64,000 nt of DNA from an uncultured Actinomycetota bacterium (GCA_963786585.1 CAWAZG010000006.1:782338-846337), one strand, 5' to 3'. Numbered from the stretch's first letter, positions 2,694-54,383 are shown. The notes: a model not told the origin generated them from the sequence alone. Made by a program: numbers and translations.

Positions 2694-2742
2694 CTCGCGC
2701 GAACGAGGTCAGGTTCCGGGGGCCGCCGAGATGGGGGCTTTC

Positions 2743-2779
2743 CTGACGTCTGACGTGAGCGTGGGCCCCAGGCTGACAC
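2743..2779. repeat. dispersed ~37-bp element, copy 1
   Basis: 32/37 identical to 38135-38171; related to the 52.3/52.8 kb inverted repeats. Confidence 0.7.
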
Positions 2780-2789
2780 CCACGCGCGC

Positions 2790-3668
2790 TCACCCCGGCA
2801 GGGGCAGGAGGGCGACGTCGGTGGTGGCGGCGAGGGCCTCGTGCATCGCCTCGCGCGGCGCAGGCCGGCCCGTGAACTGCTCGACCTGGCCGAACGCCTG
2901 GTGCAGGAGCATGTCGAGGCCCGTGGCGACGGGCAGGCCCCGGGCCGCGGCGGCCTCGGCCAGGGGTGTCGGCCAGGGGTGGTAGACCGCGTCGAGGACC
3001 ACCGACCACGGGGGCAGCGCCGCGACGAGGCGCTCGGCCAGCCCGGGCCCGAGGGCGTCGGCCGGGGTGGTGTTGATCAACCACTTGGCCGTCACCAGGT
3101 CGCCCACGCCGAGGTCGTCCCAGGTGACGGGGCGGCGGTGGAAGCCGTGGGCGCGGGCCACCGCGAGGGTGCCGGCGGCCCGCGCGACGTCGCGCACCAC
3201 CAGCGTCACCGACTCGCCGCCGAGCTCGAACACGCCGGCGAGTGCGGCGCACGCCGTGGCCCCGCTGCCCAGGACGACCACGTCCGTGATGCCCGCGGAG
3301 ATGCCCGGGGAGATGCTCGGGGAGTCCCGGACCCGCGCCGCGCGCAGGGCGCCGGCGACGCCGTCGACGTCCGTGCAGTCCGCGACCCAGCCGCCGTCCC
3401 GGGGCACCAGCGTGTTGGCCGCCCCGACCCGCCGGGCCCGGGGGGTCACGCTCGACGCCAGCTCGAGAGCCGCGCGCTTGCCGGGCATCGTCACCGACAG
3501 GCCCGCCCACGACGCGTCGCGGGCCGCGACCCAGCCGGGCAGCTCCTCGACGGTGCACTCGACGGCCTCGTAGGTCCAGTCGTCGAGGCCCAGCGCGGCA
3601 TAGGCGGCGCGGTGCAGGACCGGGGAGCGGGAGTGCGCCACCGGCGACCCCAGGAGTGCGGCGCGCAC
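2790..3668 (-). CDS. aroE: shikimate dehydrogenase
   Basis: LGSPVAHSRSPVLH, SVTMPGK, ANTL, DCTDVDG, GSGATA, GLDMLLHQA. Confidence 0.93.
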   Translation of the reverse strand: MRAALLGSPVAHSRSPVLHRAAYAALGLDDWTYEAVECTVEELPGWVAARDASWAGLSVTMPGKRAALELASSVTPRARRVGAANTLVPRDGGWVADCTDVDGVAGALRAARVRDSPSISPGISAGITDVVVLGSGATACAALAGVFELGGESVTLVVRDVARAAGTLAVARAHGFHRRPVTWDDLGVGDLVTAKWLINTTPADALGPGLAERLVAALPPWSVVLDAVYHPWPTPLAEAAAARGLPVATGLDMLLHQAFGQVEQFTGRPAPREAMHEALAATTDVALLPLPG

Positions 3669-38001: not shown

Positions 38002-39477
38002 GTGACCTCCTCCCGGCCCGCGGGGCGCCGCGTGCGGTCCGCGACCGTCGAGGACGACGCCGGCGACGACGCCGTGACGGGTCCGATCGAGGTGCCGCGT
38101 GACCGACCGGCCCGTCGGCGAGCGGGGGGATCCGCTGACGTTGAACGTCAGCGTGGCCCCCAGGCTGACACTCCCCGGCCGACGCGACGGCGGCGCGCGG
38201 ACGCGCCTCTCGAGGCGAGCCACGGCCACGGGCACGGGCACGGCGGGGGCTCGCTGGACGGGGCGTCGGCCACGCGGGTGCGACGGCTCCTGGCCCTCCT
38301 GCTCGTGCCCTGCGGGCTCGCGGTGCTGGTGGGCCTCGTGGTGCTCGCCCCGTCCCCGTCCGAGTACGCCCGGGTGGCGGAGCGGGCCGCGACCGGACAG
38401 GGCGCGCCCGGGCTCGGGGCGCAGACCCCGGTCGACGCCGAGGTCCTGCGCGCCGCCGGGGAGTCCGACTGCACCGACCCCAACCTGCCCTCCCCCGGGG
38501 AGGGCGAGGGCTGTGTCGCCGTCGCGCTCCGCCTGCAGGACGGGCCGGCGGCCGGGAGCACCATCGTCACCCTGGCGCCGACCACGCCCGGCTCGCCGCG
38601 CTTCGCCGTCGGCGACGCCGTCGTGCTCGGCTGGTCCGGCGGGGATCCCGCGGACGCCCTCACGTACACGATCGTCGACTTCCAGCGCGGCCAGCCGCTG
38701 CTCCTGCTCGGCGGCCTCTTCGCGCTCGCGGTGCTGCTGCTCGGGCGCTGGCAGGGCCTCGCCGCGCTCGTCGCCCTGGGCGCGACGCTCGGGGTGCTCG
38801 CGGTCTTCGTCCTGCCCGCCCTGGCCACCGGGGGCCCGCCGGTCCCGGTCGCGCTCACGGCGTCCGGGCTGATCGTCGGCATCGTGCTGCCCCTGACGCA
38901 CGGCCTGTCGGCCCGCACGGCGACCGCGGCGCTCGGCACGCTCGCCAGCCTCGGGCTCATCGGCGTCCTCGCTCTGCTCTTCGCCGCGCTGTCGCGCCTC
39001 ACCGGTCTCGGCGAGGAGGCCTCGGAGCTCGCCGGGGTGGTAGGGCCGGGACTCGACCTGCGCGGCCTGCTGCTCGCGGGCGTCATCATCGGCGCGCTGG
39101 GGGTGCTCGACGACGTCACCGTCACCCAGACCAGCGCCGTCTGGGAGCTCCACCGCGCGAACCCGGCCGCGCGGCTCGCCGACCTCTATGGTGCCGCCAT
39201 GCGTGTCGGTCGTGATCACGTCGCCTCGGCGGTCAACACGCTCGTGCTCGCCTACGCCGGGGCGGCGCTGCCCCTGCTGCTGCTGTTCGCGCTGGCGGGG
39301 CGGGGTCTCGGTGACCTGCTCACCGCGGAGGACGTGGCGCAGGAGGTCGTCCGGACGCTGGTGGGCAGCATCGGCCTCGTCGCCTCGGTCCCGTTGACGA
39401 CCGTCCTCGCCGCCGTCGTCGTCCGTTCCGTCAGCCCCAGCGCCACCCCGACCACGAGCCGGAGCCGTCCCGCATGA
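38002..39477 (+). CDS. YibE/F-family membrane protein (start uncertain)
   Basis: HGHGHGH, IVDFQRG, LGVLDDVTVTQ, GRDHVASAVNTLVLAYAG, RTLVGSIG. Confidence 0.85.
   Translation: MTSSRPAGRRVRSATVEDDAGDDAVTGPIEVPRDRPARRRAGGSADVERQRGPQADTPRPTRRRRADAPLEASHGHGHGHGGGSLDGASATRVRRLLALLLVPCGLAVLVGLVVLAPSPSEYARVAERAATGQGAPGLGAQTPVDAEVLRAAGESDCTDPNLPSPGEGEGCVAVALRLQDGPAAGSTIVTLAPTTPGSPRFAVGDAVVLGWSGGDPADALTYTIVDFQRGQPLLLLGGLFALAVLLLGRWQGLAALVALGATLGVLAVFVLPALATGGPPVPVALTASGLIVGIVLPLTHGLSARTATAALGTLASLGLIGVLALLFAALSRLTGLGEEASELAGVVGPGLDLRGLLLAGVIIGALGVLDDVTVTQTSAVWELHRANPAARLADLYGAAMRVGRDHVASAVNTLVLAYAGAALPLLLLFALAGRGLGDLLTAEDVAQEVVRTLVGSIGLVASVPLTTVLAAVVVRSVSPSATPTTSRSRPA
38135..38171. repeat. dispersed ~37-bp element, copy 2
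   Basis: CTGACGTTGAACGTCAGCGTGGCCCCCAGGCTGACAC; starts with perfect CTGACGT-N3-ACGTCAG palindrome. Confidence 0.7.
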
Positions 39478-50699: not shown

Positions 50700-51388
<689 letters not shown>

Positions 51389-51479
51389 GTCCTCGTCCTC
51401 CTCGGACAGATCGGTTCGATTCGCCACCCTAGTCGAGCCCACACTCCGGGCCCGTCGGCGCGGTTCCTACGATGCCCCC

Positions 51480-52289
51480 GTGCCGACGAACGAACAGCGC
51501 CGGAAGGCCGCCAAGAAGAAGCTGGAGCGTCAGCTCGAGCGACGCGCGGAGCGGGCGAAGCGACGTCGGCAACGCCTGACCATCATCTCGGTGGTCGCGG
51601 TCGTGGCGGTGGTCGCCGTCGCAGCGGGGATCTACTTCGTCGTGACCGCCGAGGACGACCCTGCGCCGGTCGCCGCGCCGTCGACCTGCACGTACAACCC
51701 GTCGGAGGCGGCGGCCAAGCCGAACACCCCGCCCGACGGCAACCCCCCGACCACCGGCACCGTCGACGTCACCCTGCAGACCTCGCAGGGCGCGATCCCG
51801 ATGACGCTCGACCGCGCCTCGGCACCCTGTGCGGTCAACGCGGTGGTCAGCCTCGCGTCGCAGGGCTTCTACGACGACACGCCCTGCCCGCGCCTGGTCA
51901 CCAGCCAGGGGCTCCAGGTGCTCCAGTGCGGCGACCCGACCGGCTCAGGCTCAGGGGGCCCGGGCTACCAGTACGCCGAGGAGCCCCCGGCCGGCCTGCC
52001 GCCGTTCCCGGGCGCCGAGGGCCAGGCGTCGACCTACGCCCGCGGCCTCGTGGCCATGGCCAAGAGCTCGCAGCCGGGCTCGACGGGCAGCCAGTTCTTC
52101 CTCGTCTACGGCGACTCGGCCCTGCCGCCGGAGTACTCGGTGGTCGGGCGCATCGCGACCCCCGGGCTCGCGGTGCTCGACCGCGTCGGCGCGGGCGGGG
52201 ACGACGGCTCGAACCAGGCCGGGGGCGGCGCGCCGCGCATCCCGGTGCAGATCCAGCGCGCCGTCGTCGCCGGGCCCCCGGCGCCCTGA
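51480..52289 (+). CDS. membrane-anchored cyclophilin-type peptidylprolyl isomerase (PpiB-like)
   Basis: MPTNEQRR, TM helix, LQCGDPTG, GSQFFLVY. Confidence 0.9.
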   Translation: MPTNEQRRKAAKKKLERQLERRAERAKRRRQRLTIISVVAVVAVVAVAAGIYFVVTAEDDPAPVAAPSTCTYNPSEAAAKPNTPPDGNPPTTGTVDVTLQTSQGAIPMTLDRASAPCAVNAVVSLASQGFYDDTPCPRLVTSQGLQVLQCGDPTGSGSGGPGYQYAEEPPAGLPPFPGAEGQASTYARGLVAMAKSSQPGSTGSQFFLVYGDSALPPEYSVVGRIATPGLAVLDRVGAGGDDGSNQAGGGAPRIPVQIQRAVVAGPPAP

Positions 52290-52292
52290 CGC

Positions 52293-52331
52293 AGATGTCA
52301 GCGGCGTGGCGCCGCAGACGTTGAGTGTCCG
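52293..52331 (-). repeat. 39-bp inverted repeat, left arm
   Basis: Exact reverse complement of 52833-52871. Confidence 0.92.
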
Positions 52332-52403
52332 TAACGCCACGCAGACGCCTGCACATCCGATTCGTCCAAGCCTGCGAGGCGGGCGTCGCCCTAGCGTGAC
52401 CGC

Positions 52404-52790
52404 ATGGATGAGGACGCTGTCGCGCGCGAGATCGTCGCGCTCGCCCGGGACTGGAACACGGCGATCGTCTCGAACGACGCCGACAAGATCGCCGAGTACA
52501 TGACAGACGACTGGGTGATCGTCTCGTGGACGGGAGTCACGGGACGGGACGATTTCCTCGCCTTCGTGCGCTCCGGCGCGCTCGGGCACACGCGGATGGA
52601 GCCTGCGAGCGATCCGCGGGTGCGCGTCCACGGGGACGTCGCGACCCTCGTCGTCCGGGTCGTGAGCACCGCCCAGTACGGCGGCGCGGACATCGACGCC
52701 GACGAGTGGACGTCGGACGTCTTCGTCCGCGCCGACGGTCGCTGGCGCTGCGCGCTGACGCACATCACCCCGGTGTCGCCGGCGTCCTGA
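52404..52790 (+). CDS. NTF2-like / DUF4440 protein
   Basis: DWNTAIVSND, VRVHGDVA, WTSDVFVR, WRC. Confidence 0.85.
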   Translation: MDEDAVAREIVALARDWNTAIVSNDADKIAEYMTDDWVIVSWTGVTGRDDFLAFVRSGALGHTRMEPASDPRVRVHGDVATLVVRVVSTAQYGGADIDADEWTSDVFVRADGRWRCALTHITPVSPAS

Positions 52791-52832
52791 TCCGATCGAG
52801 TGCGTGGCCCTATCGGCGTGCTCCGTTGAATT

Positions 52833-52871
52833 CGGACACTCAACGTCTGCGGCGCCACGCCGCTGACATCT
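52833..52871 (+). repeat. 39-bp inverted repeat, right arm
   Basis: CGGACACTCAACGTCTGCGGCGCCACGCCGCTGACATCT. Confidence 0.92.
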
Positions 52872-52874
52872 CCG

Positions 52875-54383
52875 CTACGCCGTCAGGGGCAGCGCGCCGG
52901 GGTGGAGGGGGGCGGGGAGGTCGGTGCTGCCCTCGGGGTCGAGGTAGCGGTCGACGGCCGCCGCGGCCGAGCGGCCCTCGGCGATCGCCCACACGATCAA
53001 CGACGCACCGCGGTGGGCGTCGCCGCAGACGAACACGCCGGGCGCGTCGGTCTGCCAGTCCGAACCACAGCCGACCGCGCCCTTGGGGTTGCGCTCGATC
53101 CCGAGGGCGGGCAGGAGCGCCCGGTCGTCGGGGCCCGTGAAGCCGATGGAGAACAGCACGAGGTCGCACGGCATCTCGTGCACCTCCTCCGAGGTCGGCA
53201 CGACCTCCCGGTGCCCGTCGGCGTCCCGGCGCACCTCGACCGACGAGAGCTCGACCGCCCGCACGTGGCCGCGCTCGTCGCCCACGAACCGGCGGACGGC
53301 CGTGGCGAACAGGCGCTCGCCGCCCTCCTCCAGCGCCGGCGGCGTCCGGAAGACGTACGGCCAGGTCGGCCACGGTGACGACGAGTCCTGCCGGGTCTTC
53401 GGCGGCGGGGGGTACTGGTCGAGCTGGTGAACGGCCAGCGCGCCCTGGCGGGTCGCGGTGCCGTAGCAGTCCGCCCCCGTGTCGCCGCCGCCGATGATGA
53501 CGACGTTCGCCCCGCGGGCGTTGATCGGCGACGGGCCGTCGCCCTCGCACTCGCGGTTGGCGGGCACGAGGTACTCCATCGCCAGGTGCACGCCGTCGAG
53601 GTCGCGGCCCTCGATGGTGCGGTCGTCGCGGCCCTCGAGCGCGCCGACCGCGAGCACCACGGCGTCGTGCTCGCCCTGCAGCCGCTCCACGGGCAGCGCC
53701 GCGGTCCCGACCTCGCAGTTCGTCACGAACCGGGTGCCCTCGGCGCGCATCTGGTCGAGCCGGCGGTCGAGCTCCCACTTCTCGAACTTGAACTCCGGGA
53801 TGCCGTAGCGCATGAGCCCGCCGAGGCGGTCGTCGCGCTCGAAGACCGTGACGTCGTGCCCGGCGCGCGTGAGCTGCTGGGCCGCGGCGAGCCCCGCGGG
53901 CCCCGACCCGACGACGGCGACGCGACGCCCGGTGCGGTTGCTCGGCATCTGCGGGACGACGTACCCGTCGGCCCAGCCGTTCTCGGCGATCGACCACTCG
54001 ACGCGCTTGATCGCCACCGGGCCCGGCTGGCTGGTGATCGACAGGACGCAGGCCGCCTCGCACGGCGCGGGACACAGGGCCCCGGTGAACTCCGGGAAGT
54101 TGTTCGTGGCGTGCAGGCGCTCGCTCGCGCGGTCCCACTCGCCCCGGCGGACGAAGTCGTTCCACTCCGGGATGAGGTTGCCCAGCGGGCAGCCGGCGCC
54201 GCCGGAGTGGCAGAACGGGATGCCGCAGTCCATGCACCGCGCCGCCTGGGTCTGCGTGCCCTCGCGGGTCGCGGGCTCGGTCAGCGACGCGTAGAGCTCG
54301 TGCCAGTCGGTGCGGCGCTCCTCGATCGGACGCTTGGGGTTGTCCTCACGGGAGTACTTGAGGAACCCGCGTGGGTCAGCCAC
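52875..54383 (-). CDS. gltD: glutamate synthase small subunit
   Basis: [44 protein letters not shown]. Confidence 0.96.

What the first reader, a model, noticed from the sequence alone, without database searches (positions are those of the whole stretch)
52293..52871. Cargo gene enclosed by perfect 39-bp inverted repeats (REP-doublet or MITE-like cassette)
Seen: 52293-52331 is the exact reverse complement of 52833-52871. The arms start 3 bp after the ppi stop and end 3 bp before the gltD stop, and enclose one DUF4440 gene. No transposase and no clear target-site duplication. The arms resemble the dispersed element at 2743 and 38135 (about 25/37 ungapped identity). Inference: a REP-like doublet that captured a gene, or a non-autonomous cassette moved in trans.
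Basis: partly seen in the sequence, partly recalled or inferred. Interest (0 to 1): 0.62.

Follow-up and report, generated by a model that had tools for sequence, protein, structure and literature searches.

The report
Two dispersed hairpin repeats flanking a resident gene
The perfect 39-bp inverted repeat is real, but it is two separate copies of a short hairpin repeat scattered about 50 times through this Actinomycetospora genome, and the gene between them is an ordinary resident; the same repeat family always brackets a DNA-binding nuclease gene elsewhere in the genome, an arrangement like REP/RAYT systems but with an unrelated enzyme.

Summary
Observation confirmed: 52293-52331 is the exact reverse complement of 52833-52871.

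Interpretation partly right. The arms are REP-like, but DUF4440 is not cargo.
- Each arm is a complete member (55 nt and 78 nt) of a dispersed palindromic family, 'A', with about 49 copies in this genome. Eight copies share the same 36-mer.
- Copies usually begin 0-18 nt after a stop codon. One sits behind ppi and one behind gltD. These genes converge, so the copies are inverted.
- In congeners DUF4440 stays beside gltD with no repeat, one repeat, two repeats, or a different repeat family.

No RAYT/Y1 transposase was found in 34 genomes of the genus, and no target duplication was seen.

Unexpected lead: outside the window, a 333-aa gene next to clpC is bracketed by inverted family-A copies in all 13 species that have it. 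It combines an AbiEi-type DNA-binding module with a PD-(D/E)XK homing-endonuclease-like fold. Its four paralogues are each bracketed by a different dispersed repeat family. One is the family at window 2743 and 38135. The frameshifted paralogue has only its two flanking copies.

I found no published description of this REPtron-like layout with a non-RAYT enzyme. This scan had already noted it on at least seven other genomes. The activity of the protein on the repeats is inferred, not shown.

The parts
52293..52347 (+). Family-A palindromic repeat, short form (TGTCAGC tag, local hairpin GCGGCG/CGCCGC, central hairpin GACGT-TGA-GTGTC, closing arm CGCCACGC). It starts 3 nt after the ppi stop.
52794..52871 (-). 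Family-A palindromic repeat, long form (same 39-nt core plus the module AATTCAACGGAGCACGCCGATAGGGCCACGCACTCGATC). Its 5' end is 3 nt after the gltD stop and its 3' end is 3 nt after the DUF4440 stop.
52404..52790 (+). DUF4440 / SnoaL-like gene (128 aa). It is a resident, vertically inherited accessory gene, not cargo.
52356..52397 (+). Conserved upstream region of DUF4440: TCCGATTCGTCCAAG (52356-52370) and the -10-like TAGCGT (52392-52397), 6 nt before the ATG. It is present in all congeners that have the gene, and as a remnant where the gene is deleted (G009).
51348..52289 (+). Cyclophilin-type PPIase gene. The left repeat abuts its stop codon.
52875..54383 (-). gltD (glutamate synthase small subunit type). 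The right repeat abuts its stop codon.
2735..2790 (+). Copy of sister family C (GAGATGGGGGCTTTCCTGACGT...GGCTGACA), at least 56 copies genome-wide. Its reverse complement aligns ungapped with family A.
38130..38178 (+). Second copy of sister family C in the window.

Best explanation
The two arms are two independently placed copies of one dispersed, hairpin-forming repeat family ('family A', 55-78 nt). The family is restricted to one clade of the genus Actinomycetospora. Members sit in gene 3' ends with their TGTCAGC end facing the stop codon. One copy lies behind ppi and one behind gltD, and because these genes converge the copies are inverted. They are identical because both carry the family's master sequence. 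DUF4440 is an older resident of the locus with its own conserved upstream motif. It was neither captured nor moved. Shown: family membership, placement rule, synteny, independent presence or absence of each arm, and absence of RAYT and of target duplications. Also shown: family A brackets, in inverted orientation, a single-copy syntenic gene next to clpC (G000 C3:974403-975401). Its predicted fold joins an AbiEi-like DNA-binding part to a PD-(D/E)XK nuclease domain. Each of its four paralogues is bracketed by its own dispersed repeat family. Inferred: this protein recognises and processes its cognate hairpins and so spreads or maintains the family, as RAYTs do for REP/REPINs. Also inferred: copies persist at 3' ends because insertions are tolerated there, and they may act as U-tract-less terminator or stabiliser hairpins.
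For: The repeat is dispersed: 34 blastn hits, 49 nhmmer hits at E<1e-5, and 8 copies with the identical 36-mer. 30 of 49 copies start -3 to +18 nt after a co-oriented stop codon. 22 copies have only the 5' end at a stop, against 7 with only the 3' end. An exact 24-mer of the element was found only in Actinomycetospora among the 185,579 species genomes of genome contigs. Copy number in the genus runs from 0 to 71, with 0 hits for the reversed control pattern. DUF4440 lies beside gltD in 15 other species of the genus, with every combination of repeats. The closest relative, G042 (92% nt identity), has family A on the left but family B on the right, and G044 has the long form on the left and the c-form on the right. 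DUF4440 is single-copy with GC3 0.92. No PF01797 match was found in G000; in the other 33 genomes of the genus the only match was a 28-residue fragment in G046. The nested hairpin architecture shows compensatory changes between families A and C: 82.6% of cells paired against 72.1% in shuffles (0/500 reached it) and 31-46% when slid. Nuclease partnership: inverted family-A copies flank the 333-aa ORF in G000 and in 12 congeners, always next to clpC. The flanking variant matches each genome's dispersed variant. The paralogues pair with families C, B, D and E, and the frameshifted paralogue has only its 2 flanking copies. The AF2 model has pLDDT 91.8. Foldseek matches AbiEi 6y8q and Rv2827c 1zel (E about 1e-4) and the I-Bth0305I nuclease domain 3r3p (prob 0.99). 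Flanks share an exact inverted match of at least 15 nt in 11/14 genus loci and 12/22 loci from other genera, against 3/400 random genes. The flanking repeats are dispersed in Vallicoccus soli (140 pattern hits), G328 (26 BLAST matches, the gene's own two flanking copies included) and G108 (40 matches, both strands of a palindromic repeat counted).
Against: Close (+,-) pairs of family A are more frequent than random placement predicts: 3 sites observed within 1.5 kb against 0.43 expected, P about 0.009. Pairing may therefore not be wholly independent. G042 lacks the family-A nuclease gene yet keeps about 21 copies. In G266 the flanking repeat is not dispersed. A Prauserella homologue has no flanking repeat. 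In G000 the protein has L where most homologues have E or Q in the WEIDSxEHH motif, so this copy may be inactive. AbiEi proteins are autorepressors, so the flanking repeats could be operators and not substrates. My gene calls for the stop-codon statistic come from a crude GC3 filter covering 82% of the genome.
Confidence: 0.85

Rival explanations
1. Mobile insertion cassette: DUF4440 plus its two inverted repeats is a non-autonomous unit, moved in trans by an enzyme that recognises the repeats.
For: The layout (repeat, gene, inverted repeat, TGTCAGC ends outward) is the same as around the nuclease genes. A whole REP-ORF-REP block at C3:974245-975480 is absent from the closest relative G042.
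Against: DUF4440 is single-copy and lies at the gltD locus in all 15 other species that have it, never elsewhere. It occurs with zero, one or two family-A copies, or with a different family. The two arms are different sub-forms, short and long. There is no target duplication. Codon usage is native. The missing block in G042 is best read as a deletion, because more distant species keep it at the same clpC site.
Confidence: 0.03
2. One ancestral inverted doublet (REPIN-like) lay between the convergent ppi and gltD genes and was later split by insertion of DUF4440 into its spacer.
For: Doublets with the same outward orientation exist, such as C3:1226816/1226893 (32 nt apart) and many family-C doublets 40-250 nt apart. 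Close pairs are over-represented (P about 0.009). At C3:1226816, G042 has one symmetric palindrome where G000 has a split pair.
Against: DUF4440 with its conserved upstream motif is present in genomes without either repeat (G010, which has no family A at all, and G041, which has 53 copies elsewhere). The right copy is much more widespread than the left one. Several species have an extra hydrolase gene between ppi and DUF4440. The gene therefore predates the repeats.
Confidence: 0.07
3. The repeats are host cis-elements and not selfish DNA: U-tract-less bidirectional terminators or mRNA-stabilising hairpins kept by selection behind ppi, DUF4440 and gltD. The bracketing of the nuclease-fold genes reflects regulation (operators of an AbiEi-type repressor).
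For: No canonical U-tract terminator lies at these three 3' ends. In distant congeners the ppi-gltD gap holds unrelated perfect palindromes at the same place. The 5' end shows an orientation bias towards stop codons. G-U-compatible variants occur in the sense strand. AbiEi proteins are known autorepressors that bind inverted repeats (established knowledge; fold match).
Against: Copy number varies from 0 to 71 between species of one genus. Sister species carry different families at the same site. Copies also lie in promoters and in frame inside ORFs. A conserved nuclease domain is not needed for a repressor. This function can also coexist with selfish spread.
Confidence: 0.2

Closest known systems
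REP / REPIN elements with their RAYT (TnpA-REP, Y1 HUH) genes ('REPtrons') of Proteobacteria
   Same: Short imperfect palindromes in tens to more than a hundred extragenic copies, many at gene 3' ends. Inverted doublets occur. A single-copy, vertically inherited, syntenic gene is bracketed by inverted copies of its own repeat family. Several paralogue and family pairs coexist in one genome. No target duplication is seen.
   Different: The bracketed gene is not a Y1/HUH transposase. PF01797 has no match in G000, and only a 28-residue fragment in 1 of the 33 other genomes of the genus. Instead it has an AbiEi-like wHTH module fused to a PD-(D/E)XK nuclease fold. The units are longer (52-78 nt), with nested hairpins and a TGYCAGC tag in place of GTAG. 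The host phylum is Actinomycetota. Activity on the repeats is untested.
CGTC-tagged REP superfamily (Di Nocera et al. 2013, PMC3733652)
   Same: REP families with an unpaired terminal tag, sometimes TGTC, that lack a dedicated RAYT. Head-to-head dimers predominate, and some units are intragenic.
   Different: CGTC REPs have 8-9 bp stems with A-T first pairs, 4-5 nt loops and a CCA tail. In the passages retrieved they are listed for Proteobacteria, Chlorobi, Bacteroidetes, Spirochaetes and Thermotogae, and 'Actinobacteria' does not occur in the text. The elements here do not fit that consensus, and they do have a candidate partner gene.
Mobile insertion cassettes (MICs) and MITEs
   Same: Transposase-free DNA bounded by inverted repeats. 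In MICs a passenger gene lies between IS-type ends.
   Different: No target-site duplication, no parent IS with these ends, and the enclosed DUF4440 gene is syntenic without the repeats in relatives.
AbiEi antitoxin of the type IV AbiE system (S. agalactiae 6y8q; M. tuberculosis Rv2827c 1zel)
   Same: The N-terminal two-thirds of the bracketed protein has this fold (Foldseek E about 1e-4). AbiEi binds inverted repeats.
   Different: No AbiEii toxin gene lies beside it. It carries an extra C-terminal PD-(D/E)XK nuclease domain. Its repeats lie on both sides of the gene and are dispersed genome-wide.

Membership tests
REP/REPIN-RAYT system | Short imperfect palindrome able to form a stem-loop | tested here: met
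   Folds. The nested helices pair in 82.6% of cells against 72.1% in shuffles and 31-46% when slid, with compensatory changes at 3 pairs.
REP/REPIN-RAYT system | Tens to hundreds of dispersed, mostly extragenic copies | tested here: met
   About 49 copies of family A, at least 56 of C, at least 35 of B and about 21 of D. Most family-A copies lie at gene 3' ends.
REP/REPIN-RAYT system | Replicative unit is an inverted doublet (REPIN) | tested here: inconclusive
   Family A has three (+,-) pairs within 1.5 kb (32, 465 and 1096 nt apart) plus one self-overlapping symmetric copy at C6:1520182/1520188, among 48 sites; most copies are singlets. Family C has many doublets 40-250 nt apart.
REP/REPIN-RAYT system | Cognate Y1 (HUH) tyrosine transposase gene flanked by the repeats | tested here: not met
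   PF01797 has 0 matches in G000. In 33 congeners there is only a 28-residue fragment in one genome. The control genomes gave hits.
REP/REPIN-RAYT system | GTAG (or CGTC) terminal tag | tested here: not met
   The conserved terminal motif is TGYCAGC. It only loosely resembles the TGTC variant mentioned in PMC3733652.
MITE | Terminal inverted repeats plus target-site duplication, derived from an IS present in the lineage | tested here: not met
   No duplication was seen at this locus or in 5 filled/empty comparisons with G042, nor in 7 with other species. No transposase lies between pairs.
Mobile insertion cassette (cargo between IS-type inverted repeats) | Cassette, repeats included, found at different loci or absent as a clean unit from an otherwise identical site | tested here: not met
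   DUF4440 is always at the gltD locus, with 0, 1 or 2 repeats or another family.
AbiEi-wHTH / PD-(D/E)XK nuclease genes bracketed by cognate dispersed repeats (no published description found; noted earlier by this scan) | Nuclease-fold gene flanked on both sides by inverted copies of a repeat that is also dispersed in the same genome | tested here: met
   G000 holds five paralogue and family pairs. Twelve congeners show it for family A. It also holds in Vallicoccus soli, G328 and G108. Control: 3/400 random genes.
AbiEi-wHTH / PD-(D/E)XK nuclease genes bracketed by cognate dispersed repeats (no published description found; noted earlier by this scan) | Protein architecture: AbiEi-like DNA-binding part plus restriction-endonuclease-like domain | tested here: met
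   AF2 pLDDT 91.8. Foldseek matches 6y8q, 1zel, 3r3p and 3hrl. Sub-threshold Pfam hits to AbiEi_4 and MTES_1575. D250, S264, E266 and H268 are conserved.
AbiEi-wHTH / PD-(D/E)XK nuclease genes bracketed by cognate dispersed repeats (no published description found; noted earlier by this scan) | The protein binds or cuts its repeats and is needed for their spread | not testable with these tools
   Needs biochemistry or genetics.
AbiE type IV toxin-antitoxin | AbiEi gene paired with an adjacent AbiEii nucleotidyltransferase toxin gene | tested here: not met
   Between the two repeats lies only the 333-aa ORF. Its neighbours are clpC and a membrane protein.

The most novel reading that the evidence does not exclude
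Actinomycetospora, and many other Actinomycetes, carry a second, RAYT-independent kind of REP/REPIN system. In it, single-copy, vertically inherited AbiEi-wHTH/PD-(D/E)XK nucleases each recognise and propagate or maintain their own family of nested-hairpin repeats. The family-A copies on either side of DUF4440 are products of that system. This genome, with four intact nuclease and family pairs and one decayed pair, is a natural test bed for it.
Probability: 0.45. Interest if true: 0.8.

Novelty: new variant of a known kind. Interest (0 to 1): 0.6.

Why it matters
At the locus itself nothing exotic happens: a resident gene happens to lie between two copies of a common repeat. This warns against reading perfect inverted repeats as transposon ends in repeat-rich, high-GC genomes.

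The repeats are more interesting. REP/REPIN sequences are understood only where a RAYT transposase accompanies them, mainly in Proteobacteria. How RAYT-less palindromic repeats spread, for example CGTC REPs and actinobacterial repeats, is an open question.

This genome offers five paralogous nuclease-fold genes, each bracketed by its own dispersed repeat family. Repeat abundance tracks gene integrity, and the repeat variant tracks the orthologue across species. That gives a concrete, testable candidate enzyme for such repeats in Actinomycetota. It also gives defined substrates (52-78 nt hairpins) for biochemistry.

Tried and rejected
- **Rfam.** A scan of 51000-54000 at E up to 10 gave only chance miRNA-type hits.
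- **Canonical signals.** The sigma-70 promoter and U-tract terminator scan found none.
- **Target-site duplication.** I looked at this locus and at 12 filled/empty comparisons. None was found, and the flanks are often remodelled, including stop-codon changes.
- **RAYT/IS200 Y1 transposase.** No match in G000; only a 28-residue fragment in 1 of 33 other genomes of the genus.
- **A transposase between other inverted pairs.** The pairs enclose only DUF4440, the 333-aa ORF, a membrane protein, or parts of ordinary genes.
- **Pfam and NCBIfam on the 333-aa protein.** No hit for the protein itself. Two or three paralogues gave only sub-threshold AbiEi_4 and MTES_1575 hits. A PDB sequence profile search found nothing.
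- **Structure prediction.** Single-sequence AF2 failed (pLDDT 34). The alignment-based run succeeded.
- **Technical failures.** MAFFT misaligned the large indel at C3:974245-975480, so I read the junction by eye.
- **TA- or TNA-targeted MITE that homes to stop codons.** I considered this and dropped it for lack of TA/TNA duplications.
- **Integron attC (GTTRRRY in the core).** I considered this and dropped it because the copies are dispersed, not arrayed.

Full report
**1. The observation**

Window 52293-52331 and 52833-52871 are exact reverse complements (39/39). No shuffle of the window gave a match.
- a cyclophilin PPIase ending at 52289;
- a 128-aa DUF4440/SnoaL-like gene at 52404-52790;
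- a GltD-type gene on the minus strand ending at 52875.

The arms lie 3 nt from the ppi and gltD stop codons. The flanks carry no direct repeat.

**2. The arms are members of a dispersed family**

The whole genome is 6.01 Mb, 74% G+C, in 7 contigs; the window is C6:782338-846337.
- The 39-mer has 34 blastn-short hits. An nhmmer profile finds 49 copies at E<1e-5.
- Eight copies share the identical 36-nt core TGTCAGCGGCGTGGCGCCGCAGACGTTGAGTGTCCG. A perfect match between two copies is therefore expected and not special.
- Each arm continues inward into a complete unit. The left unit is the 'short form' (core + TAACGCCACGCAGACG, 52293-52347). The right unit is the 'long form' (core + AATTCAACGGAGCACGCCGATAGGGCCACGCACTCGATC, 52794-52871).
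- Both fold into nested hairpins.
- With a crude GC3-based gene finder (82% coverage), 30 of 49 copies begin -3 to +18 nt after the stop codon of a co-oriented gene. In 22 copies only the 5' end abuts a stop, against 7 for the 3' end only.
- The two arms follow this rule, one behind ppi and one behind gltD. Because these genes converge, the arms are inverted.

**3. DUF4440 is a resident gene**

The genus is Actinomycetospora. An exact 24-mer of the element occurs only in species of this genus among the 185,579 species genomes of genome contigs.

A DUF4440 orthologue (66-95% aa identity) lies beside gltD in 15 other species of the genus. It always carries the upstream motif TTCCGATTCGTCCAAG and a -10-like TAGCGT close to the start codon. 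Its repeat status varies between species:

| State at the locus | Genomes |
|---|---|
| No family-A copy on either side | G010; G041 (53 copies elsewhere) |
| No copy on the right | G018, G019 |
| Right copy only | G024, G046, G015, G016, G021 |
| Both copies | G005, G020, G044 |
| Long form on the left, a third tail form ('c') on the right | G044 |

- In G004 the ppi and gltD stops are 2 nt apart, with neither gene nor repeat. In G009 the gene is deleted but its upstream motif remains.
- DUF4440 is single-copy in G000. Its GC3 is 0.92, against 0.93 and 0.98 for its neighbours.
- The gene therefore predates the repeats, and the two arms were gained independently. The cassette reading is refuted.

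**4. What kind of repeat**

- Rfam has no match. The three 3' ends have no U-tract terminator.
- No Y1/RAYT transposase was found in G000 or in 33 congeners, apart from one 28-residue fragment.
- Filled/empty comparisons with other species and with the closest relative G042 show insertions of about 60-70 nt without target duplication. The flanks are often remodelled, including the stop codon.
- At orthologous sites, sister species can carry different tail modules or altogether different families.
- The central 13-mer GACRYNNNRYGTC occurs in both orientations.
- Copy number of the family-A core ranges from 0 to 71 among 34 genomes of the genus, with 0 hits for the control pattern. This indicates lineage-specific proliferation.
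- The elements at window 2743 and 38135 belong to a sister family C (at least 56 copies). The reverse complement of family C aligns ungapped with family A over 52 nt.
- The shared layout is a TGYCAGC tag, a long-range stem and a central hairpin. It pairs in 82.6% of cells, against 72.1% in shuffles (0/500 reached it) and 31-46% when slid. Compensatory changes occur at three pairs. Because only two lineages are compared, the covariation reflects few events.
- A third family, B, has at least 35 copies.
- Close (+,-) pairs of family A are somewhat over-represented: 3 sites within 1.5 kb against 0.43 expected, P about 0.009.

**5. A candidate partner gene**

The other (+,-) pair of family A (G000 C3:974262/975472) encloses one 333-aa ORF with no Pfam or NCBIfam hit.
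- The whole repeat-ORF-repeat block is missing from G042. It is present in A. aeridis and A. rhizophila.
- All 12 congeners with an orthologue (58-79% identity) have it between inverted family-A copies. It always lies next to the 3' end of clpC. This holds even in genomes with almost no other family-A copies.
- The flanking variant matches the variant dispersed in that genome. The variants are the short form, the c-form with GCGAAGT/ACTTCG, and the G020 form with GGAGCGG/CCGCTCC.

The four paralogues in G000 are each bracketed by inverted copies of a different family:

| Paralogue (aa identity to the 333-aa ORF) | Bracketing family | Copies in G000 |
|---|---|---|
| 51% | C | at least 56 |
| 33% | B | at least 35 |
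| 39% | D | about 21 |
| frameshifted | E | only its two flanking copies |

**6. The protein and its wider distribution**

- With a 34-sequence alignment, AlphaFold2 gives pLDDT 91.8 and pTM 0.85.
- Foldseek against the PDB matches the N-terminal two-thirds to AbiEi (6y8q) and Rv2827c (1zel) at E about 1e-4. It matches the C-terminal domain to PD-(D/E)XK nucleases: the homing endonuclease I-Bth0305I (3r3p, prob 0.99), NGO0050 (3hrl) and Can2.
- D250, S264, E266 and H268 are conserved across the family. The G000 copy has L where most members have E or Q.
- The family occurs in 169 of 301 sampled Actinomycetes genomes.
- An exact inverted match of at least 15 nt between the two 530-nt flanks occurs in 11/14 loci of the genus and 12/22 loci from other genera. 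Among 400 random G000 genes it occurs in 3, one of which is this gene.
- The flanking repeat is itself dispersed in Vallicoccus soli (140 pattern hits, control 0), G328 (26 BLAST matches, the gene's own two flanking copies included) and G108 (40 matches, both strands of a palindromic repeat counted). It is not dispersed in G266. A Prauserella homologue lacks flanking repeats.

**7. Comparison with what is known**

- The layout is that of REPtrons, that is, RAYT genes bracketed by their REPs with REP/REPIN populations in the genome. The defining enzyme is absent, so this is not a member of the REP/RAYT family.
- CGTC-tagged REPs are a published precedent for REPs without a dedicated transposase (PMC3733652). 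The present elements do not fit their consensus.
- Full-text searches found no paper that links AbiEi or DUF559 with REP, REPIN or RAYT. This is not proof of novelty.
- After I had reached this reading, a look-up showed that this scan had already noted the same nuclease-plus-repeat partnership on at least seven other genomes. One of those is a case like this one, where the repeats flank an ordinary gene. Those are unchecked AI notes and I do not count them as evidence.

**8. Verdict**

- The locus itself is ordinary.
- The repeat family belongs to a REP/RAYT-like system built on an unrelated enzyme, for which I found no published description.
- Shown: the association, the synteny, the co-variation and the fold. 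Inferred: that the protein acts on the repeats and drives their spread.

Noticed in passing
G000:C3:2350316-2350356 (outside the window); also C3:838561-838593 and C3:32552-32594: Family-C copies lie in frame inside long ORFs. In a biotin-carboxylase-type gene one copy adds about 18 residues (…VGDFLTSDVSMAPRLTLP…) just before the conserved YFLEMNTRLQVEHP motif. This recalls the Rickettsia palindromic elements found inside genes.
   Followed up: partly
window 52356-52397: The 15-nt motif TCCGATTCGTCCAAG and a TAGCGT box 6 nt before the DUF4440 start codon are conserved in every congener that has the gene. This suggests a leaderless transcript with a conserved promoter or regulator site.
   Followed up: partly
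L014:2006-2388 (G042, closest relative): DUF4440 appears frameshifted by a 1-nt deletion near codon 71 in the closest relative. It is absent in G004 and deleted in G009, so the gene is dispensable in the genus.
   Followed up: partly
G000 genome-wide; examples in window 52314-52326 and 52838-52850: The central 13-mer GACRYNNNRYGTC of family A occurs in both orientations relative to the rest of the unit. For example, GACGTTGAGTGTC has 32 copies and its exact reverse complement GACACTCAACGTC has 6. This looks like hairpin flip by template switching.
   Followed up: partly
window 52794-52871 vs L014 and L015; G000 C3:1216530 vs L109: Orthologous intergenic sites carry different repeat families or tail modules in sister species: family A, B or c-form at DUF4440-gltD, and family A against 'family F' at C3:1216530. 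Turnover at fixed sites is therefore rapid.
   Followed up: partly
G000:C3:14733-15854 (outside the window): A frameshifted paralogue of the nuclease-fold gene is flanked by a palindromic repeat ('family E') that has no other copy in the genome. This fits joint decay of gene and repeat family.
   Followed up: partly
L030, L033, L035, L037, L040 (ppi-gltD gap of distant congeners): In species without DUF4440, the short gap between the convergent ppi and gltD genes holds unrelated perfect palindromes, for example CGTGAGCACTTTCCGGTGC…GCACCGGAAAGTGCTCACG. These may be terminators or further repeat families.
   Followed up: no
G000:C3:1025770-1026732 (outside the window): In the random-gene control, this gene also has a 22-nt exact inverted match between its flanks. 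It was not examined.
   Followed up: no
G000:C3:974403-975401 (outside the window): The G000 copy of the family-A nuclease-fold protein reads WLLDSVEYH where most homologues read WEIDSxEHH or WQIDS. It may be catalytically impaired in this strain.
   Followed up: partly
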